This document shows, piece after piece, positions 5,627 to 56,430 of a DNA stretch of 64,000 nucleotides. Position numbers and translations under genes: made by a program. This DNA comes from Geosiphon pyriformis uo1 (taxonomy: Eukaryota; Fungi; Glomeromycota). Each line of letters opens with the position of its first letter. Position 1 is the first letter of the stretch. The stretch covers positions 65,541 through 129,540 of the forward strand of contig JAAOMT010000772.1 in NCBI GenBank assembly GCA_016748015.1. Reading direction: 5' to 3'. The notes under the pieces were generated by a model that was given only the letters and a program-made list of their open reading frames with translations, had not been told where the DNA came from and did not search any database.

Positions 5627-5869
5627 AAACTTAGAGCAGCTCTTAGACTCTATGACTTGTTTAATACTTGTGAAAATATTCTACAAAATCCAATACTGCA
5701 ACCAATGAAAGTCCAATACATTGGCAAACTCACAGAACTGAAATTTCAACAATTTTCAGACCAAATTACTTCAATTATTTTAGATCACTATCTCAATATT
5801 ACAGATAGTGCTTGGACTTCGATGGAGCTCAGTCTTGAGGAAGAGATTATGTTACTAGTAGAATTTTAG
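5627..5869 (+). pseudogene. 3' part of accessory ORF3 of copy A
   Basis: LYDLFNTCENILQNPILQPMKVQYIGKL...EEEIMLLVEF matches the ORFs at 40133 and 55724. The stop lies inside the LTR. Confidence 0.85.
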
Positions 5870-6825: not shown

Positions 6826-8097
6826 ATACTTTTTGTACTCTTTGCATACCTAACATTGAAACAAAATACAACTCAGTTTACACCGTTTGAACTAGTTTAT
6901 AGAAGAAAAGCTATATTACCAATTGAACGAGTGATACTGTCATACCCAACAGAATCAATCAATGAAGAGAATTTTGAGGCTACCTTACACCAAAGAATAT
7001 ACCAGCTAATGGAAACATTGGAAAACAATCGAAAAACAGCAGCTGACAATATTAGTTACACTCAAGAATGACAAAAAAAAAAACATGATAAACACCTATC
7101 AGAACAACCAATGGAATTCAAAATTGAAGACCAAGTACTATTACATCGTACAAAAGCTGAGAAACAGTGGAGTGGAAAGTTCGACCCAAAATAGGATGGT
7201 CCATTCCACATACACAAAGCGTTAGAAAATGGAGCTTACAAATTACGATTGGAAGACAAGATTTTAAAGAAAGTAGTGCATGGAAATTGGTTAAAAATTT
7301 ATCATGTAAAACAGGAATCATCATCATCAGTACCTCAACTAGGAACACAAATTTCATTAATCAGACCAGAAGATATACCACGAGATCTGAAACCAATCAT
7401 CATCATCGAAACATAAACAATGGGCAGCAAATTAAATTGGAAAATTCAAATATATATAGCATTCAAAAAGCAGCAAGAAATGATAGAAATTTTAACATAA
7501 ACCTTTCAGATCAAATTTTAAAATTATCTAAACAATTATTTGAAACAATTCAAAAATTGACATCTCAAATAGAAATAACAATTGATAAAAAAGAGATACG
7601 GTACAAAGATAAGAGCAGGAGAAGGGAGGATGAAAGTTCAATTAGAACTAAACATTTCCTTCCCTACCCACCACCCAAAAGGCAATGTTGGAGGAAAAAT
7701 TGCCTTCAGGTGGGAGGTGGAAAAGAAGGAGGCAAAGAACAAGAAAAAGGTTACAAAAAAAGATACTTGGTTCCCGAGCTCAAAGAAATAAAAGAAGCTT
7801 TAGTTCATGGGACCGAACTCCCCGAAACAGGAGAGTGGACATCTGACAATGCCCAGGAATGGAAAGAAAAACTTCCTCCAGCTTATTGGTTCTACAAAAT
7901 TGGAAAACAGTTTGACTTGAAAACATCATACAAAGACCTCAGCCAGAAAACATTTAACAAAGAAGCAATACAACAAATAGAAAAATTCATAGGGAAAAAC
8001 AACCTGACCCTATATTACAAAGCAACATACCGACTATACGCCGCCTTCTAACATTGTCCAAACATACTACTGAATAGATCTATGAAAACCATAATGG

Positions 8098-9051
8098 TGT
8101 TACCGAAGGTTTTTGGTCTCTTTTCTTAAATGTTGTCGATGCTTGTTTGCTGTGAATTCACGTTTTCTGGATGTAGTTGAACCTCCAGTAACTGAATTTA
8201 TCTTCAAATTATCTCCTATAATTTGAACTTGCTGGGCTTATGAGTGGAATGGCCAATTCTGTACCAGTTACTTTGTATAGTTACATTGTAGTAAACGTCA
8301 ACTCTTTCTCAGAAATTGCTTGTCTAGAAGCTCACTAAATTGTGTGTAGTTACTTTGCTGTGAAAGTCAACTCTTCTATAGGAATCTTGTCTGTAGGCTA
8401 CCCTAATGATTATGATAATAAAAGAAAAGAAAATAACAGAAAAGGAAAGAAAAAGAAAAAATGAGGAATTGATTTGTTAAAGTCGTTTTGGATCCAGGCC
8501 TGGAAGTGCTTTAACAGTCTACTGAAATTGGTAGCCAATCAATTTCAAACTGTTAGTTGGGTTTTGAGGATTTTCCAAGTGCAATAATTTAAAGAATTTG
8601 GTTTTTCGAATTATTTGATATTTATTTCTTTTTGTGTGTATAGAAATGGTTCTAAGTGATAAATCTAAAGTAAGATATATTTTCTCGAAAAGAGAAGCTC
8701 TTCTTTTATACAACTTATTGTAACACTATTCTATGAACTTAAACTTTGCTCTTTTCTACAATTTTGCTGAATTAAAGATACATTTCGGTGAACTACAGGT
8801 TATTTCGGCGAATTTTTACAAATTTTGGCAAACTTTTTGAATGTTACATAGTTTGGGGTATTGCATGATTGATCATCGCAATTAGGTTACATTTGTGTTA
8901 TGTACAAATTGGGTTATTAATTAAATGATAATTTCAGATATTTTGCTAATATACTAAGTGATAATTTGAAACGATAATATATGTTAATTAATGATAGGAA
9001 TTATAAAGATAATTTCATGCTAAATAATATCTCTAATTTTGTCTGGTAACA
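8098..9051 (-). repeat. solo LTR, family 1, inserted in ORF3 of copy D
   Basis: TGTTAC...GTAACA termini. Flanks ATGG/ACAG fit a decayed 4-bp TSD ACGG, and removing the LTR restores the ORF3 frame (KTITVNNIG). Confidence 0.9.
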
Positions 9052-9203
9052 ACAGTTAACAACATAGGATGAATAACCAATCAACAATTCAAAGACCTAC
9101 AAAAGGCAATACTCAAGGCAACAATCAAACATTACACGAACAAAGCCATAATAACAGATACATATGGTTTCACAGGAGCTCAATTTTAAAAAGAGAGGGA
9201 TAA

Positions 9204-11160: not shown

Positions 11161-11544
11161 ATTTTTATAGTCTATTATATATTAATATTTGATAACAAAT
11201 ATAATCATATAATATATAGTTAAAAAATAACTTCATGTCACAATTGGGTGTATTTATTTTGCCTAAAAACGGTGTACTTAGGCTTTTTTTGGAAAAATGG
11301 AATCATTTCTAAAAACGTTGGGATCCTGAGGCCAGGTGAAATTTGGCCCGTAAATCCGGCACTCCTCCCAATTACCGACGGTGTCACTCTCGTTCATCTC
11401 AGGTAAGATTGTTCTCTTACCGCAAAGCCAGGCTTGGGAAATTATCAGATAAGATTTTCCACAACCAAAAAACCAGTTCGCTTTTTTCCTCGTACAACTT
11501 TCTCGCGAAAACGTGTAGAAGAGCCGGAATTTGCTATTTCTGAC

Positions 11545-16872
<5,328 letters not shown>

Positions 16873-29545: not shown

Positions 29546-29733
29546 TTTATTGGTGTAATAAACTAATTCAATAATATAATAGTTTAATAAAAAATAGAAT
29601 ATATAATTATAAGATTAATTTTATTCAAAATTATTAACTTATTAAAAAAACAAAAAAACAAAATTAAACTTTATTAATTATAATTAAGTAATATAAAAAA
29701 ATAAAAACATTAATATTACAAATTATTATAATA

Positions 29734-30339: not shown

Positions 30340-31089
30340 TATTACTAATAATATTAATATCAAAAAACTTTAACATTTTTATAAACAAAATATAAAAAAT
30401 AAATTAATAAAATCTTTAAATTTTATAAATATCTTTAAAATACAAAAGTTTTAAAATTTAATATTATATAAAATACCAAAATTATAATAATTAAAAAGAA
30501 GATAATATATAACTTTAATTAAATAATTTTGAAAAAACAATTATTATTAATAATTAAAATATTATAATAATCATATAAAAAATTTTATAATTTTTTTAAA
30601 ATAAATAATATCTTCAAAACAGTATTTTTACAATATTTTAGCAATTTTAATAATATTATTTGTTTATAAAATCAATTTAATATTAAATAAAATAATAAGA
30701 AAGTAATTATTACTTATTAATATATTTTAATTACAATTTTTAACAAATTTAAATAATTAAACTTAATTATTATACAATATTACAAATTCTAAATTAATTT
30801 ATTAAAAGATTTAAAAACAGTGTTTTTTAATAAATATAACTAAAAATTTTTTAAAATTTTTTAAAAAGTTGTTATATTATTTAAAAATTTTAATTAATTA
30901 AACAAAAAGCAATTATAATAAATTATTAACTTAAAAATCAATAAAATATTTTATTTATAATTGATAATCAAGCTATATATTAATTAATTTAACAAAATAA
31001 TAATAATATATATTATTAAAATTCAACTTATTAATAAATTTAATTTCTTTGATAAAACATTATATTACCTATCTTTTTATAATTTAAAA

Positions 31090-35623: not shown

Positions 35624-38600
35624 TGTTACTCATAGAATATAGAATGTATATTAGCATATAAATTAGCCAATCTGAAATAGCCATAGTAAATGTGAAATTC
35701 TAGGATTCCTCTCAAAGAAATTGCAGAATTCCAGGAATTTCAGGATTTTCATACAAGATATTACAGGATTCTAGAATTCCAGGATTCCTTTCAAAGGAAT
35801 TGTAGGATTTCAGGAATTCCAGAATTCCTGATGTAAAGAATTGAGGAATTGAGGAATCTCAATTATATATATATATTGGTAACATTAAAAGTAGAAAAAA
35901 ACAGACCTCTTAGTTTAGATTTGATCTAAGCAATCTTTCACATTACAAAAATCAAATAAATAATTATTTACTATCTCAAATCTATTTATTATTATCAAAA
36001 CTTTATGTTGATAGTAATTGATACTTAACTACACTAGAACAATAGCTCTTAATCACGGCTATTGACAGGATACTAACTTTTATCACCTTGGTTTATTTCT
36101 TTATTTTCTTTTATTTTCTTTTTTGTTATTGTTTTGTTGTGTACTAATTGATTAAAGCACTGAGTTATTAATGTCAAGAATTGCCTGGTAAAAGACCTCT
36201 GTGAGTGGATAAAGCAGGTAAAGGAATTACAGATTACTTACTAGAGGAGTACTAACCATCAAGCTAAAGAAAAAAATTGACAGAATTGTGATTCTGAAAA
36301 GCTATGGATAAAACAATTATTGAATCTCTGTTTATTATACAAAAGACTTAACCAAAACCTTTAGATACCAATACCTTCAGATCATTATCATTGCGAATAG
36401 CTTCTGAGCACCAAGTTACAGGTTTTGTTATTTGATTTGAGACTTCAAATAATCATTTGTAACATTTGGTGCTCTCTGTGAAGTATAATCCTACAGAGAA
36501 CCAGTACCAACAACAATTATCCAAAAGTGGCAGAATCAGAAATCATAGGAGCAAACCATTTAGGATTTACCAAATTCTTGTTTCAACAGTACAGCCAACA
36601 ATTAGGATTAAACAATAACTATTTTCTAGCAAAATCAGCCTTTAACTTTTATGTCAATAATAAAATCACAGACTGCTTAGGAAGAACAGTTAACATTGAA
36701 TCCACAAGAGAAAATTTCTATACAGAATTGTTTCAACATATTAGCTTACCAAGAAACTACAGTTTTGCACCAATTATTAGGGAAATTAATTAAACTATTG
36801 AAAGATACACTCAACAACAATTTCTCATCACCTATGCAGACAAAGGCAAAAGAAGATTGCAAACACCAGTGGTAACACCCAAAAAGATACAACCACCTAC
36901 TTGGAAGAAAACCAGAGTTGAATCACCAACCAATTCATCATACCATTATACACCAAAAAGTGCCATCAATATCTTTCAGCAAACACATCTACATTAAACA
37001 TGACATCAATCTTTAAACGATTCCTATTTCAAAGTAAACAAAGAAGAGCAGAATTATTAGGACCATATGGCAAATATTTTAAAGGATTTAAATTGCAATC
37101 ACCAATGCCATCAAGATTTTGATCACTGCTACTTCAACCCAATTTCGGAATTGTGAATTCATAGAAAGTAACAGAATTAGAAGAAAAAGAAAGTAAGAAT
37201 CAGGAATTTACTTACCAAAACTCAATTCTAGAAAATCTGGAAGTTGAAATTTTGAACATTCAAACCCAGCAAACTCAAAACAATTCAAACTCCAAAACAA
37301 TTAATCAGCCAAACTTACCTCCAGTAATTGTCATCAATCAGCCACCAATTAAACTGATTATTGAACTAATTTAACAGCAGCCACTTCAGCAACCTATTTA
37401 ACAACTTTAACTACTACCACCATAACAACAACAACAAATGACATATACACCAATCACAAAGCTGAAAAAATTTTCTGGCAAAGAAGATAATGCCCAAGCA
37501 TGGATCAATGATGTCACCAAAGCCATCACCACCAATAACTGAGATGATGTCAAGACAATACAAGTCATCCCATATTTTCTCAAGGATACTGCCAACTTAT
37601 GGTATTATAGCTTAGCCCAAAAACCCCAAAACTTTAATGCATTCAAAATAAAATTCCTAAGATACTTCAGTAATAATAACAGCATCAACTGCCTGACAAG
37701 TACCTTTATCATCATAAAACAAGGGGACACAAAAGCAGTTACTGCTTATCTAGGGTGCTTCTACAGGAATTTGCACCAGATTTAAGCCATTAACACTGAT
37801 TATTTTATAGTAGTACAGATCTTGAACCAGTTTATTTGTGGATTATACAACAGTATCCTACAACATGTATGACCAATGCATCTAATCATCTTATAAGATG
37901 CAGTCACACATCCCAAAAATTTTGAGTTAGCTGAGTTAGAGGCCAATCATGCCCAAGCTGTAAATTTAGTAATAAATGAATCATCTAACCTAGATTTTAA
38001 ACTGAAGCACTTCAACAATTTAATCAATCAGAAAATCAAGATATATTTAGTTAACAATAATTAGGCAATCTATCAACCCTTACAACAATACAATAATCAA
38101 GGAAATATGAACTGTTTCCAAAATCAGCCGTGTTTATTCTCATCATCTAATCAGCCATAGCAGCCAGAGATGCATGTCTGCCACAACTGTGGTAAACAAG
38201 GTTACATAAAAACTAACTGTCATTTTTATAGTAATTCATGATCAGGAAATCAATACTGAAACCCTGATCACAGAGTTCAAACTCCAAATTATTACTTAAA
38301 TCAAGACCAATATCAGCCAACTTATCTGCCAATGATATAGCAGTCAATATATCAACTGTCCATATATTAACCTCTAGTTTATCAATTACAATTACAAGTA
38401 ATATATTAACTGCAGCCACCAGTAATTTATTAATCTCAGCAACTTCAAACATTGTCCTAAAATTCCACCCAGATGACATCAGAAAACTCCAGATCCAAAG
38501 TTATCCAAAACTGAAGATCGGCAATAGTGGTTCACCAACCAATTCTCAGTTCATCAAATCACTCATCAGAATTATGCCAGTAGAATTCGGGAGCTGAGTA

Positions 38601-39947
38601 CACCCAAAACCTGAATTCTTAGAACTATTTAAGTCTCTTGATAACTCCAGAAGACACTCCATCCAACAACCAAGAAACCAATCACACTTCAACACCTACT
38701 AACAATATTCTACCAGCTACTATCACTAAAAACAAATCACTGGATGCCATCTTTTCATTTGAACTTAAGAAACTGTCAGCCATGCTATTATTTAGTGGAG
38801 TCACTTTTGAAGAAAAACCTATTACCACCATGTACATTAATGTTAAAGTTGATGGCCACTCTATTAAACTGATCCTAGACAGTGGATTAGCTGACAGCAT
38901 CATCACAAAACAACTCATAAACCAATTAGATTGCCAAGTTGATCGAACTGCCAGCACACAAATCATCACTGTTAATGGAGTGACAAAACTTTGATCAGCA
39001 AAATTGATGACTTCTCTATAGAGATCAATAGCATTATTGTGCCAATCAAAGTATTAGTTATGGAAGCCACTCAATACCAAGCACTCATTAGTAATGATTG
39101 GCTGTCCAAAACCAATGTGATGCTTGATTGGAATATGCAAGAGCTTCAACTTAGCCAGAACAGTCGACACACATATGTACCAGCCACATGTGGCCATTTC
39201 AAGACCACCAACATGCCAGCACCACTCATCAAGTTCAAAAAAAAAGAGAAGAAACCTATCTGGGAAGCCTATCAAGTGTCATGGACTGAAGATGATGTTA
39301 CTGAAGGTTTTTGGTCTCTTTTTTTGAATGTTGTAATTGTTTGTTGATTGCAAATTTACATTTTCTATAAGTAGTTGAATCTTTAATAACTGAATTTATC
39401 TTCAAATTATCTTCTATAATTTGAACTGCTGGGCTTATAAGTAGAATGGCCAATTTCTTGCCAGTTACTTTATGTAGTTACCTTATAGTAAATGTCAATT
39501 CTTTCCCAAGAATTGCTCATCTGGAAGCTTACTAAAAATGTGTAGTTACTTTGCTGTGAAAGTCAACTCTTCTACAGGAATCTCATCTGTAGGCTACTTT
39601 AATGATTGTAATAAGAAAAGAAAAAAAAAATAAAAGAAATGTAAAAGAAATAAAATTTTATCAAAGGAAACGTTTTCTATCCAGGCCTGGAGTCACTAAC
39701 AGTTTACTGAAATTGGTAGCTAATCAATTTCAAAATGTTAATTGTGTTTTGGAGGTTTTCCAAATGCAATAATTTAAAGAATTTGGTTTTTCAAATTATT
39801 TGATATTTTATTTCTTTTTTTGTGTGTAGGAATGGTTTTAAGTAATAAATCTAAAGTAAGATACATTTTCTTGAAGAAAAAAGCTCTTCTTTTATACAAC
39901 TTGTTGTAGTACTAGTCTATGAACTTGCACTTTTTCTCTTTGCTCAA

Positions 39948-40056
39948 NNNNNNNNNNNNNNNNNNNNNNNNNNNNNNNNNNNNNNNNNNNNNNNNNNNNN
40001 NNNNNNNNNNNNNNNNNNNNNNNNNNNNNNNNNNNNNNNNNNNNNNNNNNNNNNNN
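39948..40056. other. assembly gap (N)
   Basis: Run of N inside the 3' LTR of copy B. Confidence 0.99.
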
Positions 40057-40132
40057 AAATAATAATTTGAAATGATATTAATATACTAATTAATTATAGG
40101 AATTATAAGGGTAATTTTATGCTAATTAATAG

Positions 40133-40840
40133 CTAAAATTCTACTGGTAACATAATTTCCTCCTCAAGACTGAGCTCCATCAAAGTCCAAGCACTATCTG
40201 TAATATTGAGATAGTAATCCAAAATAATTGAAGTAATCTGGTCTGAAAATTGTTGAAATTTCAGTTCTGTAAGTTTGCTAATGTATTGGACTTTCATTGG
40301 TTGCAGTATTGGATTTTGTAGAACATTTTCACAAGTATTAAACAAATCATAGAGTCTAAAAGCTGCTCTAAGTTTGTAGCAAGTGTTTGTTGGTCCAGCT
40401 GCTGTTTTGAATTCATTGTGGATTTGTTTTTGTATAGCTTCAGGAGTGAGATTTGTTGCTTTAAGTTCTAGTTTTTGTTCATAAAGTGTCTTTCCAATGT
40501 GAAAGTATTTATAGATAGGGGTGTGTTCATTGTTTTGTTCATTGAGAAGTAGTAGAAGTTTTTGTTGCATTGTAGCATTTGGTGGAATGTCAATAGGGGC
40601 AATTAAAAGATTTTTTTCTAGTGCTTGCTTCAAAAGTCTTGGTAATCTATTTTCAGAGTGGCTTCTTGTTTTTCTTCTATAGAGGTGATAGTTCTGTGAA
40701 TGATTTGCTATTGGGGCTGTAGTTTCTTTCTAAATATAATTAATTTAACTTCCATTAATTGTTATGGATAAGTCAGGAAGTGTTTTCAAGACTAACATTA
40801 ACTTTTGGGATATTTGTTGAATATTTCGGAGAATAATCAT
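40133..40840 (-). pseudogene. accessory ORF3 of copy B (235 codons, two C>T-type nonsense codons)
   Basis: ATG at 40840 (MIILRNIQQISQKL) is in frame with KQALEK...MLPVEF*. Confidence 0.85.
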
Positions 40841-40985: not shown

Positions 40986-42371
40986 TTAAGTGTTCAAGTT
41001 TGGTTGTTGTTCTATTATAATTATTGGTTCTAAATTTCAGAGAATATCTTCAGGATTAATTAAAGGGAAATGTGTACCAATTTGTGGAATTAATGGTTCA
41101 GGATTGTTTCTGGAATGATAGTGTTTCAATCTGTCTCCATGTGCAACTTTTGCTAGTATTTTGTTATCAAGTCTTAACTTATATGATCCATTGTCTAGAA
41201 TTTCGTGAATATAAAATGGTCCATCCCATTGGTTTTCAAATTTCTCATTCCATTGTTTTTTAGCCTTAGTTCTGTGTAAGAGAACTTTATTTCCAACTTT
41301 AAATTCGTTGGTAATAGGTGGTAATTTGTTGTCATGTCTTTCTTTTTGTTGAGCTTAGGAATGTTCAATATAAGTTGCTGCTATTCTTCTTTTTCCTTCC
41401 AGTGTACTAAAAAGAGTGTAGGCTCTTCTTTGGAGTGTTTTTTGAAAGTTTTCTTCATTGATTGGTTGCACTGGGTATGTTTCCATTGTAAAATTAATTG
41501 GTAATGTTGCTGTCCTTCCATAAGTAAGATCAAATGGTGTGTGTTTTGTAGTATCTTGTTTTAGCATTCTGTATGCTAATAACACTGATAGAATAAAGAT
41601 ATCCCATTCCTGCTCAAAGTCTGTTGAGACTTTGGCTAGAGATTTACACAATGTTCTGTTAAAACATTCTACAAGTCTATTTGTTTGAGAGTAATAAGAT
41701 GATGATAAAGGTCTTTTAACATTAAACTGTTCACAAATTTTTTGTATCAAGTTGTTTACAAAATATGTTCCTTGATCAAATAAAAGTTTAATTGGGCATC
41801 CATGTCTACAAATAATGTCTTCATAGATAAAATTTGCTACTGATTTTGCATCTGCTCTTTGGATGGCTCTAGCTTCAGACTATTTGGTAAGATAATCTAC
41901 TGCTATTGCAATATAGCAATTTTTTTGGGTTGTGATAGGTAATGGTCTGACTAAATCAATTCCAATTCTGTCTAAAGGTTGTCCAACTTTGATTGGATTT
42001 AAAGATTCTGTGGTGCAAGTTCTTTTTTTTCTTTGACAACTATCACAAGATTCTACATATTGTCAAATGTCTTTTTGTATGTGAGGCCAAAAATAATGTT
42101 AAAGGGTTCTTTGAATTATTCCATTTCTTTCCAAGTGTGCTGAAGACGAGTTTGTGTGCATATTGTATAAAATTGTTTCTTTTTCATTCTCTTGTTCTAA
42201 TCTGAGTGGTTGGTTTGGGTTTCTGTGATTTTTATAATAGATTTTGTTCTGGTGTATGAAATATTGTTTTGATTGGTGTTGTAAACGATGTTTTTTACTT
42301 GGAAACCAGTTTTTTGGCATACTAAGGGTCTTCAAATAATTTTTAAGATTGCTGTAATTTCTGAAATCCAT
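40986..42371 (-). pseudogene. integrase ORF of copy B
   Basis: Colinear with the intact 461-aa ORF at 56576-57961. Confidence 0.9.
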
Positions 42372-45300
42372 TCTTGTTTGGTTATTTTGTTGGTAGGTTG
42401 GTAAGTTGTGGTGGAATTTGTTGTTGGTATTAATTTTGTCTCATTCTTGAGAGGCTATCAACATTGGTATGTAGTTTTCCTGGTTTGTGGTGTATAATAT
42501 ATCTGTAGTCTGCTAGGAAGTCATTCCATTGAGACTGTTTGGCACTTTGTTCAGTTTTCTTTTTATTGAGCCATTTGAGGCCAATGTTGTCCATTATTAT
42601 GTCAAATTTTTTTCCATTCTTTAGATATTGTTGAAAATGTTTAAGAGTCCAAATAACTGCGGCAGCTTCTAATTCAGTTGAGCCGTATTTTAGTTCTGTT
42701 GGTTTGAGTGTTCTATTAGCATAAGCAATGACTTGTTCTTGCCTATTTTCATCTACTTGTGATAAGATGGTACCAAATGCTATGTGTGAAGCATCAGTGG
42801 CTAGTTGAAATTATTTATTGAAGTCTGAGTAAACAAGAACTGGGGCTGTTATCAGTTTTGTTTTGAGGGTTTCAAATGCTTTTTGTTGTTCTTTAGTCTA
42901 TTTGTATGGCACATTTTTATTGGTAAGATAATTGAGTGGTTTGGCAGTTTCTGAGAATCCTTTGATGAATTTTCGATAATAGGAGGCTAATCTTATAAAT
43001 CTTCATAGTTCTGTGGTATTTCTGAAAGTTTGAAAGTTTTTGACAGCACTGATTGTTTCAAGATTTGGTTTGACTCCATCTTTGCTAACAATGTGTCCAA
43101 GAAAAATTAAGCTTGTTTTTCCAAAGTGACATTTTTTAATGTTTAACTTCAATACTGCTTTCCATAATCATTGAAAAACTTCTTACAGATGGATAAGATG
43201 AGTCTCAAAGCTTGGTGAGTATATATCAGTGTCATTAAGATAGACAACTACTAATTGCCACAAGAGTCTTTCATATACAACATCTATAAGTTGCTGGAAT
43301 GTTGCTGGTGTATTGCAGAATTCAAAAGGAATAATATTGAACTTATAGTTTCCTTTCTGAGTGGTAAATACTGTTTTGGGTCGGTCTTTTGGGTTTATTT
43401 TGACTTGTCAGTATCCACTTTCTAAGTCTAAAGTTGAGAAGAACTTGGCTTTTCCTAGAGCATCTAGCATGTCATCAATTCTTGGAAGAGGGTAAACATC
43501 TCCAATTGTCACACTATTCAATTGGTAATAGTCAACACAAAATCTGATTTTTCCATTTTTTTTTTGACAAGGACTACTGATGAGGCCCAAGAACTTCTTA
43601 ATGGTTGAATCAATCCATTATTAAGCATTCTCTGGACTTCTTCTCTGATGAATTGGTGCCTGACAGGTGGTACTCTGTAAGCTTGTTGACGTTTTGGTGG
43701 AGCATTTCCTATATGGATCTGATGTTGAACCATATCCATTTTTCCCAGGTCATTGTTGTCTTTTGCAAATATATCTGCAAATTCAGCTATCAATTGTTTC
43801 AATTGTCTTTGTTGTTGAGGTTCTAAGAGACTCATGTTAATTTGAGAGAGTTTTTCTTCCAAAAAATGGTAGTTTTTGGTAGTGGGAATGATATTTGGAT
43901 TTGAGAATAAAGTGTGCCTTACAATTTCGATGAAATTAGAGACAATTTGAGAGTTTTCATTTTGAAAAATATTGCTGTGTATGATTCCAATCTCTAGTTT
44001 GTTTAATAAAACAATAGGGTAATTATTGGGGTTGTAGAATATAACTCAAAATTTTTTTATTCCTTTGGGAATATAAACATTTGGAATTGAGATTTCATGC
44101 TTCAAACAGATTTGTTTATTGGATTTAAAGATTTGTTGTGTAGTGGTGGGTTTTGAGCAAGTGTAAATTTTGTGATGTTCTCCAAAAGATGAAATGGTAA
44201 TTGGCTAGGGAAGTTGAAGAATCTGGGGAGATTTATTTTGTGTATTAAGAGCTATGTTTACTGAAACTGTAAATCGTCCAGTTGAACCAAAACCTCGAGT
44301 TCCTTTTTCACTTTTTCCCAATTGTTCTCTGTTGTTTACTGATTGTAAACCCGAAATGTTGATTAAAGATAAGTAAATTGCTTGAGCAATTTTTTCAGCA
44401 TGTTCAATTTTAAATAGTTTGTTTGTCTCATTCTGTAATATGATGGTAATGTCTCCAGTGTATTCTGCATCTATAACTCCTCTTCTAATATTGATTTCTT
44501 TGCTTGCCAATGATGATCTGAAGGCAATTTGAACCATTGCTCCTGGTGGAATTTCAAAAGCAATTTTGAGATTGATTTTTGTCAAAGACTTTGGTTGGAG
44601 AACCAAAGTATCTTTTTCTGGGTATTTTAGGTCATATTCAGCATCAATTTTGTGTGCTTTTTCTGGTCTGATTCCTTGGCCATGGTTGTTAAAATATTTA
44701 AGTTGTAGAGGTGGTTGCTTTTCAAGAAGATAAATAGGGGTGGTTAGTAGTTCTTCTACTAGTTCAGATACTCCAAATTCGATTTCATTTTCATTATTCT
44801 CATCTGGCAGAGGAATGCTAAGAGCATAACATTCTAAACACCATTGGTCATCACAAGGCATAACACATTTTTCACACAATTGAATGTTCATTTGCTCTAA
44901 TCATTGAATTTGAGCTTCTTTGGTCGGATATGTGTGGCTTGCAATTTGGTGGTAGGTTTTTACTTCATCTTCATAATCAAATCTAGCTAATTCCATAGTA
45001 TACTTAATGTATTCAGCTTCTTTCATTTGGCAGACATCTTCTTGGGTGGCTCTATTGATCAATGTCATTGCTAAGTCAAAAATTATTTCAGCATTATGAG
45101 GGTAGTGGTAAAGTTTATTGAGAGCACTGTTGTATGCTGCATCAAATGGTGTTCCTCTTCTGACTTTTTCCGAAATTGATAGACATATTGACAGGTCTGA
45201 TTACATACTCCTCCTTTCATTGCTACATCAATCCAATTGTATTCTTCTGGTAGCTTTTTTTCACAAGTAAGGCAAGAAGTTTTGTCCCATTTTCCACTTT

Positions 45301-48300
45301 TCTTTGGGGATCCAAATCGTTCTTTATGGCATGCCTTGCAGAAGTAACAAGTGCAAGTTTCGTATTCCTCTTCTGGGGAAATACAGGCTCTCATAAATGA
45401 AAGCTTCTTTTTGCAATCTTTGCATTTTAGTGGAATGTATGGTGGTTTTTTTCATGGTTCTGGTGTAAAATATCTAACTTTCTTCCATCCTCTTGATTTT
45501 TCAAAAATCTTTTGTTCTGTTTCCTTAGCCCAACTGAATAGTGATTCAAGAGCCATGTAAGTTTCAGTAAGTGGCATTTCCTTTTTTTCTTCAAATTCAA
45601 ATACTGGAGCTTTTTCTGATCATTTGTTAAAGGTACCACAGATTGCAGGTACTATGGTATATTGTCCTTGGTATAAAATTTTAAGTTCTTGAGTTTTCCA
45701 GTTCAGGTTTGCATTGGCCTTGAGAAGCCAATTATTTCTGACTAGAGCTTGGTATTGGAGTGCATCCATAACAAGAACTTTAACTGGAATGGTGATTTCA
45801 TCAATTGTAAAGGGGAAATTATCAATTTCTCCTACTGGAGTCTTTTTCATACCATCAACTGTGACAATAACTGTTTGAGCAGGTCTGTCTATGTTTTGTT
45901 TAAGTTGTTGTATCAGCTGGTAAGTGATGATACTTCTAGCCAATCCACTATCTAAGATTAAGTGAATAAGTTTTCCTTCTACTGTAGCTTCTGTGTATAT
46001 AGCAGTAATTGCTTTCTGTTCATTGACTGCTGTATTACTAAGCAGAAATGGTGATTCATTTGCTTCAAATTCAAATGGAAATATATTTGACAAATTGGCA
46101 TTTTGGGCAATTTGAGTTGGTGGAATGGTGTGGTTAAAAGGATTTGATCTTGGTACTACAACTTCACTTTCAGAAAGTGCAGTTTGTTGAAAATCCGATT
46201 CCTCTGGTATTGTAAGATAACTGGGTTGAGTGTGATAGTAATTGGGTCTTTGTTGACCAGAATTTCGGGGAACCAACTGGTTATTTGGATTGATTCTGTT
46301 GTTGTTACTCTGTAATTGATTTTGGGGTGTCTAATATGACTGAATTGGTAAAGATTGCTGATATTGTTGTTGCATTGGTTGTGGAGCTAGTGGATAGTAA
46401 CTGTTTTGATTTTGTGGTCTTGGTGAATAATAGATTGGTAGTAGAGATTAGTAATAAGATTGTTGTAGTAAAGAATAATGTTGATTACTCCTGTTTTGTT
46501 GGTCTCTTTGTAATTTCCTACAATCTTGTTTTCAGTGTTCTGGAATTTCACAATAATGACAATTTTGAGGTTGGTTGTTGAATGGTTATCCAAAATTGTT
46601 TTGGTTGCGTCATTGTGGAGGTTGATATCTTTGTGGTTGTTGTTGCTGTTGTTGTTGGTTTGTGAAGTAGCTTTCAACCTTTTTTGTGAGTTGGTCTATC
46701 TTTTTTTCAGCTGCTGAGCTGGTTTCTCTAATTGCAAAATTTACAAGCTTGGTGTGATTTGCTTCTTCTATTGCCATTTCATAGCTTTTTGCATGTCTAA
46801 TAGCAGTTGTTAAGTCTGCTGGAGCATGTGGACAGACTTTCTTAATCAGTTTGTCTTTTAACTCTGCTATAAACTAATTCAGAATTTGAGCATCAGAATA
46901 GTAGTTATTGGTTTACAATTGTTGAATTCATCTGAGAAGTTTGTTAAATCTTCCAAGATAGGTCATAACAGTTTCAGATGTTTCTTGTTTGATATTGTGA
47001 AAGTGGTTTCTAAGAGTAATAGAGGTATTGTTGTCAGTGAATTGTTATAGAAAAACATTTTTGAATGCTTGCCAGTTTTCAAATAGTTCTTCTAAAATTT
47101 CAAACCATTTTTCTGCTGTTCCTTGGAGAAAATAGGGAATTGCTTTAAGCATTCTTGCTGCAATCCAACTATTTGCATCTCCTGCTTTTTGAACTTTGTT
47201 GAGCTATTCTTGAGAACTGATATCATTATCTTCACCTGTGAATTCTGGAATTTTTGCAATATAAGCAGTTGCCATTTTCTTTTTGTTTTCTGTGGTTTCT
47301 TCTTGTTCTGATTCAGTTTCTTCACTTTCCAAATTTTCTGAATGATCACTTTCATTTTCCTGCAAGTATTCAATAATATTGGTGCTTGTTGATATTGGTT
47401 CTTGCTGTTGAGTAGGATTTCTAGGTAACTGAAAATCTTCTGGTCTGGAGAAATGGTTAAATAGTGAATTTGGTGTTTGTAGTCAAGCAAGTGAAATTGG
47501 AAATAGTGTAATAGAAAGTGGTAATTTGACACTGGTTCCTTGTTCAGGTGTTTGCAAGTGTTTGGCAGTTGTCTTTGATAGTATTGGAGTGTTTGGAGTG
47601 GTTTTTGCATGTTGTTTCACTTTTTGTTTGCCTTTGTTGCTTGTTTCTGTTTCTGATTCAAAGTCAAGAGAGTATTTAGATTGTACTGGGTATTTTTCTT
47701 CACAATACTTGATAATGTTGTAATTGAGTTCTTGAAAGTAAGTAGCAAGTGTTTCACTGTTAAGATCTTCAGTTCCCAATCATGAATAGTGTACTAAATT
47801 ATTGTAGAGATTGCTTCTCACTTCTGAAATGTTGTAATTTCTAAGAAAATAATTGTTAATACGGTTTTCAATTTATTGGTAGAGTGTTCTTTCGACAATT
47901 TCAATTCTGTCTGAGATGTTAAATCTCTGCTTGCAATGGATGTAAATTGATTGATAATACTCTAGAGTTGTTGTGTCTGGTGTGATTGCCACTTTGAAGT
48001 TTGTTGTTTGCTGTGTTATTTCCATAAGAAAGCACTAAATGTTACTAAAGGTTTTTGGTCTCTTTTCTTGAATGTTGTAATTGTCTGTTGGTTGCAAATT
48101 CACGTTTTCTAGAAGTAGTTGAATCTTCAATAACTGAATTTATCTTCAAATTATCTCCTATAATTTGAACTGCTGGACTTATAAGTGAAATGGCCAATTC
48201 CTTGCCAGTTATTTTATGTAGTTATATTGTATTAAACATCAACTCTTTCCCAGGAATTGCTCATCTGGAAGCTCACTAAAAATGTGTAGTTACTTTGCTG

Positions 48301-51300
48301 TGAAAGTCAACTCTTCTACAGGAATCTCATCTGTAGGCTATCTTAATGATTGTAATAAAAAAATAAAAGAAAAATAAAAGAAATGTAAAAGAAATAAGAT
48401 TTTATCAAGGGAAACGTTTTCTATTCAGGCCTGGAGTCACTAACAGTTTACTGAAATTGGTAGCTAATCAATTTCAAAATGTTAATTGTGTTTTGGAGGT
48501 TTTCCAAGTGCAATAATTTAAAGAATTTGGTTTTTTGAATTATTTGATATTTTATTTCTTTTTTTGTGTGTAGAAATAGTTCTAAGTGATAAATCTAAAG
48601 TAAGATATATTTTCTTGAAAAGAAAAGCTCTTTTTTTATACAACTTGTTGTAGTACTAGTCTATGAACTTGCACTTTTTCTCTTTGCTCAAATTTTGGCA
48701 AACTAAAAATACATTTTGATGAACTACAAGTTATTTTGCTGAACTATTGATTAATTTGGGTGAACTATTCATAATTTCGGCGAATTTCTTATAAATTTCG
48801 GCGAATTTCTGTAAATTTTGGCGAATTTTAGAATGTTACAAAGTTCAGAGTATTGTGTAATTTGATCATCTTACTTTCTGTTATACTAATTAAATTATTT
48901 TAATTGTATTATGATATGTAATAATTGATTAAATAATAAATGATAATTTGAAATAATATTAATATACTAATTAATTATAGGAATTATAAAGGTAATTTCA
49001 TGCTAATTAATAGTTAAAATTCTACTGGTAACAACGAACACAACAAATTACTACCAATACTCTCTTGGAATAACAATAGAAAAGGAAATCAAAAGGAAAA
49101 ACTTACCTGGAATACCAACCAAGTCTGGGGAACTAACAATAATCTGGACAAATTATCAACTTGGGAGTAAAAAGAAACTGACAAGAAAAAGAGAAAAAAA
49201 AAGGAAAAAGAAACAACACTCACCAATACCACCACTTATAATTTCTACATCTACACTACACCACAACAATCCACTTACCACCAACCAAAGCTCATATGCA
49301 TTGATTGTGACAAGAAATTGTCATCAATGAACACATGCTGTAATAATGATAAGAAATACTACATAGCAACAAGATTCTACTGTCACTCATGCATCATAGA
49401 ATGCTTTGAATGACTGAAATGGCAAGAAAAATAGAACAACAAACCATGTCTTACATGTGGAACTATTTTGCCTGATGAAAGAATGTGGAATGACATTCCT
49501 GGGCATAGAGAAATATGTGATAAAACATGCCAGTATACAATCTTAATTAATGATTGAATATGCAAAGGAACACCAATTGATGATATCTAAAAATAAGTGT
49601 TGTAACAATTGGAAGAATATCTCTATGACAAACATGAAATATAGAGAATGACAAGTGTGAAAATAGAAGGTGTGACAACCAACAAACTACTGAAAATTAA
49701 AAACAATCTCTTATCACTTCCAGAATCCAAATACATCTTAACTTTCAATGTTTTTAACAACATTGAAAATGATCCTAAGCAATTTTATGAGCACTACCAA
49801 AACTTAGCACCAATCAGAGAAGAGCAAGAACAGTGTTTAGCCCAATTAAACACTCAACTATGTGACTATTGTTTAATTCCATGTGACTTTCAATATTGTA
49901 ATGAGTGTGATCTTATTTACAATCCACCACCATGTATGATCTACATAATTCCAGAGAAAAAAAAACCAATCAACAGCTGCGCATTAGAATTGGAATCAAT
50001 TTTTAATCCCAATTCAAACTCCAACAATAATGATGACGAAAACAATGGTTCCAATTCTGCTCAAAATGGCAATGAAAATAACAATGATTTAGACTCCGAT
50101 TCAAACTCTGAAACATTTATTGTACTTTCTGATCTTACAAAAAATCAGAAACTTAAATAGTTTAGCAATAATAATAAAAATATTATGCCAGAATGTGTGC
50201 ATAATACCAATGTTGGATTTGACTTGAGATATTTAGGAAAAAATACCATCAAATTGGAACTATATTTGCACACATGCATTAATCTCAAAATAGCATTAGA
50301 AATCTCAACAACAACAATAGTTCAACTAACATCTAGGAGTAGTTTAGCAAAAAAGAAAATCAACATCAGAAAAGAAATAATTGATACAGGATATATAGGA
50401 AACATTATTGCAATACTACAGAATGACTTTGAAAAGACCTATATTATAGAGCCAAATGAAAAGATACCACAGGCAATATTCCTATCTCTAGTGAAAATAG
50501 CTCAGTTAGTGTCAATAAGAAATAGAAAAAAATTAGGGATTACAGCAAAAAAAATACAGGGATTTGAATTAATGGGTAGAATAGATGTACCAGTTAATAT
50601 GGTAAAGAAAGAAGTTATTGATAAGAAAAAAATTATTTCCATCTGTTAATTAATTTCCATTCTACCATATAACTAATACATATTAGTCATAAAGAGAAAA
50701 GTAAAGGATCAGATACAGATTTTTGAGGCAGAAGCAACACTTTGTGAATCAGAAAAGATTAGATTAGTCAATCTACATATATCAGCCAAGCACTATAAGC
50801 ACATCAAAATTCCTATTTACAACAACATAGGAGATATTATTGAGATACTAGAAGGAACCATTATTGAATACTTAAGCATTGAAGTTGAAGATCAATTATC
50901 AAGCACTATTTCAGACTTTCCACAACTTTGTAAATATGAAGATATTATATTACAAACAATATATGAACAAAATAAATGTTATTTGTTCCAACCAGAACAA
51001 TTGGAACAAATAAACATGGGAAACTTAGATTCACTATAACATATACAGCTTAAGATATTGCTTAACAATTTCAATGACATCTTTACCAGTAAAAACAAAT
51101 TTGGCAGAACTGACATCATCCAACATCAAATCAAGACTGGAGATGCAATGCCAATTAAACAAAGAGCATATAAAGTACCACCAACCAGTCATAAGATCAT
51201 TTATCAAGAAATTAATTAGATGCTTAACAACAGGCTAATTTAGCCATCAATAAGCTCATGGTCATTACTGGTGGTACTAGTTTATAAGAAGAATAGAAAA

Positions 51301-54300
51301 ATACACTTTTGTGTGGATTACCAGAAATTAAATGGAGTAACAAAAGGAGATAGCTGTCCAACTCCAAAGATCCAAAAACTTTTCAATGCTTTTAAAGGAA
51401 AAAAGTGGTTCTCAACTTTAGACTTAGACAGTGGTTACTGACAAGTAGCTATGAAACCAGAAGATAAAAAAAAAACAGTGTTTACAACATAAGAAGAAAA
51501 TTTTAAATTCGAAGTCATGCCATTTGGCTTGATAAATGCTCCAGTTACTTTTCAGTGGCTCATAAAAATTGTTTATACTGGACTACTATGAAAATCAGTA
51601 GTCGTATACTTGAATAACACCAATGTGTTCTCAAAAACATTTGATGATCATTTGCATTATCTCCAACAAGTGTTTGAAAGACTAAAAAGAGCCGAATTAA
51701 AGCTAATTGCAACCAAATATTTCTTTGGAAAAACTGAACTCAAGTTTTTGGGACATGTTGTGAGCAAAAATGGTATCAAAACATATCCAAACAAGATTGA
51801 AATAGTCAAAAACTTTTCAGTACCAACCAACTTAACAGAACTAAAAGCATTCTTGGGATTTGCTGGATACTATTATCACTTTATCAAAGATTTTTTCAAA
51901 TTGGCTCAGTCATTACACCAGCTTTAATCAAAAAACACCAAGTATGAATGGACAGAAAACCAGTAAGAAGTGTTCAACATATTAAAAAGAAAGCTTATTT
52001 AAGCTCTAGTGTTAATATATCCAGATTACAGCAAACCATTCATCATTACTACTGATACATCAGATCAAGCACTGAGAGCAGTACTATTACAGAAAAGACC
52101 AAATAAAAAAGAACATCCAGTAGCATACACCAGCCGAAGTTTGAGTTTAGCCAAAAAAAACTATGGAATGCCAGCATTAGAACATTTAGCAATCTATTGG
52201 GCAGTCATGAAATGCAAGGAATGTTTAAACCAAAAGTTTGAGATATATACTAATTATAAAAGATTGATTTTAATTCAAAGGCAAGAATTTGGAAATGATT
52301 ACCATGTTAGATAAAAAATAGAACTCTCACTATTTAATTATACAGTACATTACAAAAAAGAAAAGAAAAATGGAAATGCTGATGGCTTGTCACAAATAAA
52401 ACAAATCTAAAAACATTTCAACCCAAAAATATAACAAAAAATAAATATACAAAAAATACCAACAACTCCAACATTATATAAATACCTAATTGTTCAAGAA
52501 GAAATTATCTTAAAAAGAACAAAACAACATAAAACAACAATCAAAATATTTTATCAACCATTAAAATATACTTTACTAGAAAAACAAAAGAAATTTAGAT
52601 CAACCAATCAGAATAATTACAGAACCAGAGAAAGAAACAATATTGTTCAACATGCACTCAGATCCAACAGCAGGATATTTTCATAAAAAAATAACAATAG
52701 AAAGAACCAGAAAAAAATACTATTGGCCATCTATGTACTCAGACATCATCCAATATGTTCAAAAATTATAATGCTTGTCAGAGAAGAGAAGGAACAAAAC
52801 CCAGTAAACTGTTAAGACCAATCAAAGTGAAACAATCATTTGATTACATTGGAATTGATTTAGTCGGACTATTAACAATAACTAGCAAAGGCAACAAATA
52901 TATTGCAGTAGCCATAGACTATCTCACTAAATAGCCAGAAGCAAAAGCCATTCAAAAAGCAGATGCAAAATCCATTGTGAAATTCATTTATCAAGATTTG
53001 ATCTGTCAACATGGATGTCCAAAAAAACTACTATCAGATTAAGGAATTCACTTTGTGAATAGAACATTGGCAAAATTAAGTCAAAAATTTAGAATAAAAA
53101 GACCATTGTTATCACCATACTATTCACAAACAAATGGATTAGTTGAAAAGTTTAACAGAACATTGTGTAAAGCCATTGCCAAAATCAGCCAAAAAAACCA
53201 GGACAAATAGGATTTGATTATATTATCAGTATTATTTGCTTATTGGACAATGAAGCAAGACACTATATAAACAACACCATTCAAATTAGTATACAGTAGA
53301 ACAGCAATATTACCAGTTGAGATAGAAGTTAAAACATATTCAACAGCACCAATAACAAAAGAAAATTTTCAAAGAACATTGTTAACAAGAACATATAACT
53401 TAATAGAAACACTAGAAAACACATGGCAAAGAGCAGCTGATAACATCCAAAAGTCACAAGAAAAACAAAAAGAAAGACACAATAACCAACTACTAGAGAA
53501 ACCAGTTGAATTCAAGATTAGAAACAAAGTACTTCTACATTGTACTAAAGCAGAAAAACAATGAAGTGGAAAATTTAACCTCAAATGGGATAGACCATTT
53601 CACATAGAAGAAATTCTTGGAAATAGAGCTTATAAATTAAGGTTGAACAACAAAATTTTAACCAAAGCAGTACATAGTAATTAACTGAAACAATACCATC
53701 ATATAATATCATCATCTATCAGTAATATTCTACAATTAGGAGTACAGAGAATACTAGTCAAACCAGAAGAGATTTCACGAGATCTAGAACCAATTATAAT
53801 TATTAAACCAAATATGTAAAATTGTACAACCAAAAAAGTATATAAAAACATAGTATATGTAACAAAAGACAACAGAAAAATGGAGATTATTGACAGCATT
53901 CACTTACTAGCACAACAACTTTTTCAATTAATCCAACAACAAGAGATGAAAATTACAATCAATCAACAAACTATCAAATACATAATCACCAGAAAAGAAC
54001 CATAAAATAAAATATGGAGAAAAACAGAAAACACTGTAAACAAAATAATTACAAAAGTGAAATTGGCAATAAAAACACAACCAAAAGTTACTTAATATCA
54101 AGAGTTGACTATAGAAACTTGGAATTAATGAATACAACAATTTTCAAAAAACTTTTGTTACTTTTATTTGGGACAACACTTGAACATTTAGGGCTTGTAT
54201 ATGGATAAAACAAAATGATTATTTGACACAACAATACTGTAACAACTGGAACAATTTGTGGAGAAGAACAATTTGACCACATAAGCAAGAGCAATTTATT

Positions 54301-55723
54301 GGCTACACACCAGGTTTTAAGATTGATCAAAAATCTTACTCAATCCAGAAATAAACTCTATTACCATTAACCAAATGGGAAAATTAATTAATGCTCAATT
54401 TAAAGAATTACAGAACAAGATAGCACAAGTAATTCTTGAAAAAGAAGTTCAAGAAATACTCAAAGACGGAGAATTAGAATTAAAAAATTTCAACAAAGCT
54501 TAATATTAAAGAGAAGGGAATAATATTACTTATAGAATATAAAACGTATATTAGCATATAAATTAGCCAATCAGAAATAGCCATAGTAAATATGAAATTC
54601 CAGAATTTCTCTCAAAAGAATTGCAGAATTCCAAGAATTTCAGAATTCTCATACAAGGAATTGCAGAATTTCAGAATTTCAGGATTCCTTTTAAAAAAAT
54701 TGCAGGATTCCAGAAATCCCAGAATTTCTGATGTAAAGAATTGAGAAATTAAGAAATTTCAATTATGTATATTGTTACTGGAGGTTTTTGGTCTCTTTTC
54801 TTGAATGTTGTAAATGTCGATTGGTTGCAAATTCACGTTTTCTAGAAGTAGTTGAATCTCCAATAACTGAATTTATTTTCAAATTATCTCCTATAATTTG
54901 AACTGCTGGGCTTATAAGTGGAATGGCCAATTCCTTGTCAATTACTTTATGTAGTTATGTTGTAGTAAACATCAACTCTTTTCCAAGAATTGCTCGTCTA
55001 GAAGCTCACTAAAAATGTGTAGTTACTTTGCTGTAAAAATCAACTCTTCTACAGGAATCTCGTCTGTAGGCTACCTTAATGATTATAATAAGAAAAAAAA
55101 AGAAAAATAAGAGAAATATAAAAAAAATAGAATTCTGTTAAGGGAAACGTTTTCTATCCAGGTCTGGAGTCACTAACAGTTTACTGAAATTGGTAGCTAA
55201 TCAATTTCAAAACATTAGTTGGGTTTTGGGGATTTTCCAAGTGCAATAATTAAAGAATTTGGTTTTTCAAATTATTTGATATTTATTTCTTTTTGTGTGT
55301 ATAAGAATGGTTCTAAGAGAAAAATCTAAAATAAGATACATTTTCTTGAAAAGAAAAGCTTTTCTTTTATACAACTTGTTGTAATACTAGTCTATAAACT
55401 TGCACTTTTTCTCTTTGCTCAAATTTTGGCAAACTAAAGATACATTTTGATGAACTACAAGTTATTTTGCTGAACTATTGATTAATTTGGGTGAACTATT
55501 CATAATTTCGGCAAATTTCTGTAAATTTCGGCAAATTTTAGAATGTTACAAAGTTCAGAGTATTGTGTAATTTGATCATTCTACTTTCTGTTATACTAAT
55601 TAGATTATTTTAATTGAATCGTGATATGTGATAATTGATTAAATAATAAATGATAATTTGAAATGATATTAATATACTAATTAATTATAGGAATTATAAG
55701 GGTAATTTCATGCTAATTAATAG

Positions 55724-56430
55724 CTAAAATTCTACTGGTAACATAATCTTTTCCTCAAGACTGAGCTCTGTCAAAGTCCAAGCACTATCTGTAATATTGA
55801 GATAGTGATCCAAAATAATTGAAGTAATCTGGTCTGAAAATTGTTGAAATTTTTGTTCTGTAAATTTGCCAATGTATTGGACTTTTATTGGTTGCAGTAT
55901 TGGATTTTGTAGAACATTTTCACAAGTATTAAACAAATCATAGAGTCTGAAAGCTGCTCTAAGTTTGTAGCAAGTGTTTGTTGGTCCAGCTGCTGTTTTG
56001 AATTCATTGTGGATTTGTTTTTGTATAGCTTCAGGAGTGAGATTTGTTGCTTCAAGTTCCAGTTTTTGTTCATAAAGTGTCTTTCCAATGTGAAAGTATT
56101 TATAGATAGGGGTGTGTTTATTGTTCTGTTCATTGAGAAGTAGTAGAAGTTTTTGTTGCATTGTAGCATTTGGTGGAATGTCAATAGGAGCAATTAAAAA
56201 AATTTTTTCTAGTGCTTGTTTCAAAAGTCTTGGTAACCTATTTTCAGAGTGACTTCTTGTTTTTTTCTATAGGGGTGATAGCTCTGTGAATGATTTGCTA
56301 CTGGGGCTGTGGTTTCTTTCTGAATGGAATTGATTTGACTTCTATTAATCGTTATGGATAAGTTAGGAAGTGTTTTCAAGATTAATATTAACTTTTGGGA
56401 TATTTGTTGAATATTTCGGGGAATAATCAT
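55724..56430 (-). pseudogene. accessory ORF3 of copy C (one 1-nt deletion in an A-run)
   Basis: 707 nt versus 708 nt in copy B. ORFs 56221-56430 and 55724-56224 join once the deletion is repaired. Confidence 0.85.

What the first reader, a model, noticed from the sequence alone, without database searches (positions are those of the whole stretch)
40133..40840. Non-env accessory ORF3 conserved across three divergent LTR families
Seen: a sense-strand ORF of ~235 aa lies between integrase and the 3' LTR in family 1 (A, B, C), with homologues in family 3 (D, ~7420-9190) and family 2 (H, ~53820-54520). Shared blocks: IQQISQKL..L.ITI / ILKLSKQLF..IEITI / IHLLAQQLF..MKITI; YKYFHIGK / YWFYKIGK / YFYLGQ; AAFRLYDLF / ATYRLYAAF; IGKLTELKFQQF / IG.ITNQQFKDL / MGKLINAQFKEL. 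No signal peptide or transmembrane segment is evident, so it is not env-like. In family 1 it reads through the PPT and stops inside the LTR. Inference: an ancient, selected accessory protein of unknown function (anti-silencing, nucleic-acid binding or targeting).
Basis: partly seen in the sequence, partly recalled or inferred. Interest (0 to 1): 0.8.

Follow-up and report, generated by a model that had tools for sequence, protein, structure and literature searches.

The report
Extra helical gene in fungal retrotransposons
Several families of jumping genes in a soil fungus carry the same unnamed third gene after their integrase; its predicted helical protein is not an envelope and likely binds DNA to keep the element's own copies switched on.

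Summary
A sense third gene (ORF3, about 220-245 codons) lies between integrase and the 3' LTR in three Ty3/gypsy families (PR-dUTPase-RT-RH-IN, no chromodomain hit). All five window copies are broken or partly in an N gap; full-length gene models exist in Geosiphon pyriformis. Families share 23-27% protein identity and no alignable DNA, yet profiles align (f1-f3 E 3.6e-8, f2-f3 1.2e-20, f1-f2 1.4e-4). Two more Geosiphon families and five unnamed metagenome lineages carry it. There is no transmembrane segment and no significant Pfam, PHROG, PDB or fold match. The core folds confidently (pLDDT 91) into seven helices with an invariant Asn before a basic helix; only sub-threshold hints (DUF1016_N, ParB-type Spo0J/KorB) point to a helix-turn-helix. 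dN/dS was uninformative; selection rests on protein-level conservation. Best reading: a separately expressed, likely DNA-binding regulator of the element's own LTR (about 0.35). Extra ORFs at this position are a known kind; I found no description of this family. The scan noted post-integrase ORFs in other genomes (no sequence match found) and this genome's CpG-centred target sites before.

The parts
40133..40840 (-). ORF3, family 1 copy B; 235 codons, two premature stops (codons 32, 37); ends inside the 3' LTR
40205..40651 (-). Conserved seven-helix core of ORF3; invariant Asn (N152 in P0010 numbering) precedes the basic R-L-Y-x-x-F helix
40841..40985 (-). 145-nt AT-rich spacer between the integrase stop and the ORF3 ATG; pyrimidine tract plus TAG 11 nt before the ATG (candidate splice acceptor, untested)
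40153..40165 (-). Polypurine tract of copy B, read through by ORF3
39296..40152 (-). 3' LTR of element B (contains N gap 39948-40056)
40986..47868 (-). Decayed gag-pol of element B (protease Pfam hit in B; zinc knuckle, dUTPase, RT, RNase H and integrase assigned from the homologous copies A and C)
48040..49033 (-). 5' LTR of element B
55724..56430 (-). ORF3, family 1 copy C; frameshift near codon 55
5627..5869 (+). ORF3, family 1 copy A; last 80 codons, rest hidden by N gap
7497..8097 (+). ORF3, family 3 copy D, first part (start codon decayed, one stop)
8098..9051 (-). Lone family-1-type LTR inserted into ORF3 of D; flanks ATGG / ACAG
9052..9189 (+). ORF3, family 3 copy D, last part, ending just before the purine tract
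53880..54509 (+). ORF3, family 2 copy H; 10 premature stops in the first 207 codons
53823..53825 (+). Position of the family-2 integrase stop (a stop in about 99% of laid contig depth, mutated in copy H); separates integrase from ORF3, which is in the same frame
53839..53846 (+). TATATAAA in the family-2 spacer; a similar TATATATA lies at 7451-7458 in family 3 (candidate internal promoter or 3'-end signal, weak)

Best explanation
ORF3 is a conserved third gene of these fungal Ty3/gypsy elements, separated from integrase by a stop, whose soluble helical product likely binds DNA through a predicted helix-turn-helix-like core and would act on the element's own LTR to keep cognate copies transcribed despite host methylation. 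Shown: position, homology across families, separation from integrase, absence of a transmembrane segment. Predicted: the seven-helix fold. Inferred: expression from a spliced or internally started RNA; DNA binding by the Asn-capped basic helix; a family-specific activator or anti-silencing role, with ORF3 diverging alongside the LTR it would recognise.
For: Gene status: homologous start Met and 219-244 aa length in full-length members of lineages only 13-43% identical between families; no DNA alignment in 3 of 3 family pairs, while 10 of 10 profile pairs beat their reversed controls. Differences fixed between subfamilies 1a and 1b (n=43; 42 and 41 database models of 200-246 aa) are more conservative than rare ones (n=343): mean BLOSUM 0.26 vs -0.53, p 0.0009; they are densest in the linker, 0.48 per residue vs 0.08-0.10 in the core. 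6 of 10 stops in copy H are read as sense in about two thirds or more of the contig depth among the 40 rows shown, 71 rows hidden. Separate cistron: the frame relative to integrase differs among the three families and family 2 has a stop between them. DNA binding: core model pLDDT 90.7, pTM 0.85; N152 in 12 of 12 lineage representatives, basic residue at 162 in 10 of 12, aromatic at 113 in 12 of 12; these motifs align colinearly with DUF1016_N (P 0.0044; 0 of 60 block shuffles reach the score); ParB-type domains appear among weak fold hits spanning the whole core: Spo0J 1vz0 Z 4.0, rmsd 4.9-5.2, 94-95 aligned; KorB 1r71 Z 3.4, rmsd 4.7, 95 aligned. Family specificity: ORF3 is 23-27% identical between families where integrase is 51-58%, and both place family 3 nearer family 2. 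Host pressure: CpG observed/expected is 0.29 in the window.
Against: No function was tested. The helix-turn-helix hints are below significance: DUF1016_N probability is 7.8%, and it was picked after a Pfam scan of 24,736 models (best E 0.028, 3 of 45 members); the Z values of 3.4-4.0 rank below designed helical proteins and within the tool's background. DUF1016_N is itself described only as an unknown, mainly helical domain (PMC1189080, passages). Overall charge is not uniformly basic: pI 5.4-9.7 in 10 proteins. dN/dS gives no support: B vs C corrected omega 0.70, p 0.24; between-family values 0.35-1.05 at near-saturated synonymous sites. The fixed-versus-rare test uses gene models selected by similarity and one pair of subfamilies. 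No binding motif in the LTR was sought or found. For the most distant lineage (P0243), the upstream ORF in L001 is not recognisably integrase, so its place in an LTR element is unproven.
Confidence: 0.35

Rival explanations
1. ORF3 is an integration-targeting cofactor that would tether the integration complex to methylated, transposon-rich chromatin, in place of the chromodomain these elements lack.
For: No chromodomain hit on the integrase ORF, which ends after an SH3-like region. The window is a stack of nested insertions. 9 of 9 junction flanks have a central pyrimidine-purine step and 7 of 9 have TG, CA or CG (chance 1.7e-6 and 3e-5); both complete duplications differ as a decayed central CpG would.
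Against: The target preference is shared by families whose ORF3s are only about 24% identical. Central-step preference in 4-bp duplications is usually set by integrase itself (recalled). ORF3 is not fused to integrase.
Confidence: 0.2
2. ORF3 binds the element's RNA or a host protein (RNA export, particle assembly, or blocking small-RNA or methylation machinery), like retroviral accessory proteins, and the helix-turn-helix resemblance is incidental.
For: Fast divergence with a conserved hydrophobic core fits a protein-protein arms race. Accessory roles of this type are proposed for plant additional ORFs (PMC7264820 section 7).
Against: The best-conserved non-hydrophobic residues (Asn152, Arg/Lys162) cluster on one helix in a pattern that resembles a recognition helix.
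Confidence: 0.3
3. ORF3 is a captured host gene or passenger with no role in transposition.
For: All five window copies are broken or partly hidden; dN/dS is not below 1 with significance; the context of the P0243 lineage is unproven.
Against: It is kept at the same position in three families with 51-58% identical integrases, and its protein pattern survives after DNA similarity is gone. No host-gene family was hit in Pfam.
Confidence: 0.07
4. ORF3 is an env-like or cell-to-cell movement protein.
For: It occupies the env position; the best ESM Atlas feature hit for P0243 was a closterovirus coat protein (score 0.92, 150 shared features).
Against: No hydrophobic segment in 10 of 10 proteins; few cysteines; the Atlas hit lies in the range that shuffled proteins reach 4-10 times in 100 and below the 170-feature mark.
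Confidence: 0.05

Closest known systems
Sense additional ORFs between pol and the 3' LTR (aORF-3S) of LTR retrotransposons (PMC7264820; read part 1 of the text and section 7)
   Same: Same position and orientation; present in most families and copies; unknown function.
   Different: The reviewed sense examples are from plants and insects and are often env-like with transmembrane segments; the fungal example named there (Boty) is antisense. This one is fungal, sense, soluble, and traceable across at least ten lineages.
Non-env ORF3s of bdelloid rotifer LTR retrotransposons (PMC5408684; abstract and passages)
   Same: dUTPase-bearing LTR elements with a separate third ORF, some of 210-230 aa; ORF3s are typically expressed from spliced messages.
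   Different: Those are GDSL esterases, DEDDy exonucleases, coiled-coil or transmembrane proteins; none of these families was hit here.
VANC proteins of Arabidopsis VANDAL DNA transposons (PMC6719617; passages)
   Same: Functional model only: a fast-diverging accessory protein giving family-specific anti-silencing.
   Different: DNA transposons of plants; no sequence or fold link was found; VANC depends on short repeated motifs, which I did not look for here.
DUF1016_N / YhcG N-terminal domain (PF17761) and ParB-type helix-turn-helix domains (Spo0J 1vz0, KorB 1r71)
   Same: Colinear Y-x-IG..N-L..R-x-Y-x-x-F pattern over 58 columns; weak whole-core structural overlap.
   Different: Scores are below significance; bacterial; no nuclease or ParB nucleotide-binding domain attached; ORF3 adds a conserved N-terminal helix plus two strands.
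Foamy-virus Tas/Bel and lentiviral Nef (recalled, no call)
   Same: Accessory ORFs next to or running into the 3' LTR; Tas is a DNA-binding activator made from an internal promoter.
   Different: Retroviral; homology was not tested and nothing in the searches suggested it.

Membership tests
Ty3/gypsy LTR retrotransposon (host element) | Domain order PR-RT-RH-IN between LTRs, with primer site and purine tract | tested here: met
   Pfam hits on copies A, B and C; LTR pair, TG..CA ends, purine tract and shared primer-site sequence
Chromovirus | Chromodomain at the integrase C-terminus | tested here: not met
   The 486-aa integrase ORF of C has zinc-binding, core and SH3-like hits, then about 40 residues and a stop; no chromodomain at E up to 1
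Sense additional ORF (aORF-3S) | Conserved sense ORF between pol and the 3' LTR in most copies of a family | tested here: met
   5 of 5 element 3' ends visible in the window carry it; 197 database proteins at E up to 0.001 for family 1
Sense additional ORF (aORF-3S) | Expressed from its own spliced or subgenomic RNA | not testable with these tools
   Only DNA contigs could be laid; candidate signals in the spacers are weak
Env-like ORF3 | Transmembrane segment | tested here: not met
   Maximum 19-residue hydropathy 0.44-1.29 in 10 of 10 proteins
Env-like ORF3 | Signal peptide | tested here: inconclusive
   No predictor available; the N-terminus models as an amphipathic helix plus two strands and has no hydrophobic run
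DUF1016_N (PF17761) | Pfam score at the curated cut-off | tested here: not met
   Best E 0.028, 3 of 45 members
DUF1016_N (PF17761) | Remote profile-profile homology | tested here: inconclusive
   Probability 7.8%, P 0.0044, 58 columns, against an 11-sequence profile; 0 of 60 block shuffles as high
ParB-type helix-turn-helix domain | Structural match to Spo0J/KorB DNA-binding domains | tested here: inconclusive
   Z 4.0 (rmsd 4.9-5.2, 94-95 aligned) and Z 3.4 (rmsd 4.7, 95 aligned), within background
VANC-like anti-silencing factor | Induces family-specific demethylation through motifs in its own element | not testable with these tools
   Needs expression and methylation assays

The most novel reading that the evidence does not exclude
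ORF3 is an undescribed eukaryotic DNA-binding family, distantly derived from bacterial ParB/DUF1016-type helix-turn-helix domains, that an old clade of fungal retrotransposons uses as a family-specific anti-silencing or methyl-CpG-sensing factor, and that helped LTR elements take over about 40% of the Geosiphon genome.
Probability: 0.15. Interest if true: 0.8.

Novelty: new variant of a known kind. Interest (0 to 1): 0.48.

Why it matters
LTR elements cover 41.2% of the G. pyriformis genome (PMC11952901, passage), so the many 'hypothetical proteins' matching ORF3 (197 hits for family 1) are one transposon gene, not host genes. The function of non-env third ORFs in LTR retrotransposons is an open question. 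This one is small, soluble, confidently modelled and has an obvious residue pair to mutate, so it is directly testable. If it is a family-specific anti-silencer, it would be a retrotransposon counterpart of VANC in a fungus from a group where CG methylation and small RNAs target transposons (shown for Rhizophagus, bioRxiv 10.1101/2021.03.30.436303, passages).

Tried and rejected
No whole genome is held, so copy numbers and a copy tree were not possible. Pfam, PHROGs and PDB sequence searches gave no significant family for the ORF3 alignments' ORF3 part; best PHROG E 0.0012 in 1 of 12 members. Foldseek on PDB and viral models gave 0 matches at E up to 0.001. VIA searches gave best Z 5.2 on the long C-terminal helix for the whole model and 4.6-5.0 for the core; this does not show that the fold is new. 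The ESM Atlas answered only for P0243, with no convincing hit. Homodimer prediction gave no answer: score 0.17 against a mark of 0.32, alignment not used. No RNA holder listed. Uncorrected dN/dS of 0.25-0.37 among family-1 copies was rejected: correcting for the transition-rich LTR spectrum gives 0.70, p 0.24, and gag, dUTPase and the integrase tail give 1.1-1.3, so decay after insertion dominates. An integrase-ORF3 fusion in family 2 was rejected. No relatives in viral contigs by pattern or protein. The ORF upstream of ORF3 in L001 matched neither integrase, ORF3 nor Pfam. No tRNA gene in the window to identify the primer. Sequence look-ups in earlier scan findings returned nothing. Literature searches listed no description of this ORF; the Geosiphon genome papers did not appear in them, and no supplements or repeat libraries were read, so an annotation there cannot be excluded.

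Full report
What is there. The window is AT-rich (GC 0.31, CpG observed/expected 0.29) and is a stack of nested LTR elements. Pfam finds zinc knuckle, aspartyl protease, dUTPase, RT, RNase H and integrase in Ty3/gypsy order, with no chromodomain. All 120 listed homologues of the copy-B protein are hypothetical proteins of Geosiphon pyriformis, up to 93% identical, so the host is that fungus or a close relative (inference).

The ORF. Copy B is a 235-codon frame from 40840 to 40133 with two premature stops. C is frameshifted, A is mostly in an N gap, D is split by a family-1 LTR, and H has 10 stops in 207 codons. A profile scan of all six frames finds these five places and nothing else below E 0.1. 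Full-length database models exist for family 1 (235 and 239 aa) and family 3 (244 aa). In contigs of run X1, 6 of H's 10 stops are read as sense by most depth among the 40 rows shown (71 hidden), so they are damage after insertion. Family 1 reads through the purine tract into the LTR; families 2 and 3 end just before it.

Homology and range. Pairwise and profile tests link the three families; f1-f2 is the weakest direct link (probability 53%, E 1.4e-4), but both match the metagenome group P0205/P0199 at E 1.9e-20 and 6.4e-11. A full HMMER search returned 99 proteins at E up to 0.001. 21 were already named Geosiphon. Of 78 new ones I looked up 16: 11 were Geosiphon and 5 unnamed ENA/JGI proteins. 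The other 62 are at least 43% identical locally to Geosiphon family representatives. This adds two Geosiphon families (P0174, P0195) and five outside lineages (P0199, P0205, P0243, P0232/P0260, P0237). P0199 and P0205 end in the same EE/K-I-M-L-P tail that family 1 gets from reading through the purine tract, which suggests the same layout. P0243 stands for 21 near-identical proteins. Its two loci show a purine-rich tract and a TGTTAT start downstream, but the upstream ORF is not recognisably integrase. No protein from another named fungus was seen, but only one round of the full search was possible.

Selection. ORF3 is 23-27% identical between families where integrase is 51-58%, and no DNA alignment remains in 3 of 3 pairs. 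Second codon positions are the most conserved in every between-family comparison (0.49-0.63 vs 0.10-0.44 at third positions). dN/dS itself failed: it is near saturation between families and not significant within family 1 after correcting for the mutation spectrum (0.70, p 0.24). Differences fixed between subfamilies 1a and 1b are more conservative than rare ones (p 0.0009) and concentrate in the linker. The case for selection therefore rests on protein-level conservation.

Expression. Spacers of 145, 81 and 54 nt separate the integrase stop from the ORF3 start in families 1, 3 and 2, and the relative frame differs. Family 2 is in frame with integrase, but about 99% of laid depth has a stop at 53823-53825, so it is not a fusion. 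Family 1 has a pyrimidine tract and TAG 11 nt before the ATG. Families 2 and 3 have TATA-like octamers about 33-39 nt before it; the family-2 octamer shows no listed variant and recurs in a diverged spacer. Both are weak leads in AT-rich DNA.

Structure. The full-length model of P0205 (45 sequences, pLDDT 79.5) has an N-terminal helix plus two strands, a loose linker and a helical core. The core of copy B folds at pLDDT 90.7, pTM 0.85, into seven helices. No fold search gave a clear match. Spo0J (Z 4.0) and KorB (Z 3.4) span the whole core but lie in the background range. DUF1016_N recurs weakly in Pfam scans and aligns motif to motif at P 0.0044, probability 7.8%. The invariant Asn152 and a basic residue at 162 frame the helix that would be the recognition helix. 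These hints agree with each other, but none is significant.

Mechanism. I put about 0.95 on a real, once-functional accessory gene and about 0.5 on a DNA-binding helix-turn-helix-like core. The full best explanation, a family-specific regulator of the element's own LTR, gets 0.35. Rivals are RNA or protein binding (0.3), integration targeting (0.2), passenger (0.07) and env-like (0.05). The CpG-centred target sites (9 of 9 flanks with a central YR step, 7 of 9 TG/CA/CG) are real but are shared across families and more simply assigned to integrase. I noted them before seeing the earlier scan note on them.

Comparison and novelty. Sense additional ORFs at this position are a known kind (PMC7264820, part 1 of the text and section 7; PMC5408684, abstract and passages). 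dUTPase in fungal gypsy elements is known (PMC2864245, passages). Five paper searches listed no description of this protein family; most subscription papers and all supplements were unseen. Verdict: a new variant of a known kind, interest 0.48.

Noticed in passing
window 39292-39295/49034-49037, 8094-8097/9052-9055, and flanks at 6826, 21805, 24776, 31800, 35620, 54769, 63504: 4-bp target sites are centred on a present or decayed CpG: 9 of 9 have a central YR step, 7 of 9 TG/CA/CG (chance 1.7e-6 and 3e-5). Also noted by earlier finding e1-10582392.
   Followed up: partly
window 35624-39295 and 49034-54772: These appear to be one family-2 element split by insertion of element B; element C sits in its 3' LTR, and a family-2-type LTR end at 63508 interrupts C, so families 1 and 2 inserted into each other.
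   Followed up: partly
window 40166-40176, 5828-5838 and 9175-9185 (approximate): The DNA motif GAGCTCA(G/A)T(C/T)TT just before the purine tract is shared by families 1 and 3 but read in different ORF3 frames (ELSL vs GAQF), suggesting a cis-acting signal rather than a protein motif.
   Followed up: no
window 36465-36476, 22668-22679, 48028-48039 (approximate): Families 1 and 2 share the primer-site sequence TTT(G/A)GTGCT(C/T)T; the priming tRNA was not identified.
   Followed up: no
window 42099-42810 vs the matching part of copy C: B and C differ far more here (10-20%) and mostly at synonymous sites (omega 0.13 in 42430-42810) than in ORF3 or dUTPase (5-6%), suggesting recombination between subfamilies or local misalignment.
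   Followed up: no
window 7161-7496: In family 3 the ORF3 frame stays open for about 110 codons upstream, overlapping the integrase tail in another frame; no slippery site was sought.
   Followed up: no
L001 3-557; L002 900-1030 and 1568-1577: An unidentified Asn-rich ORF precedes the P0243-type gene; a CACAAC-type repeat follows it; L002 ends in ACGT then TGTTAC, like a nested insertion at a CpG site.
   Followed up: partly
window 11407-16735 and 18292-18903: Likely host genes between the elements: long ORFs ending in a protein-kinase start (13886-15163) and a glutathione S-transferase.
   Followed up: no
window 29700-31050: A region with internal direct and inverted repeats, not assigned to any element.
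   Followed up: no
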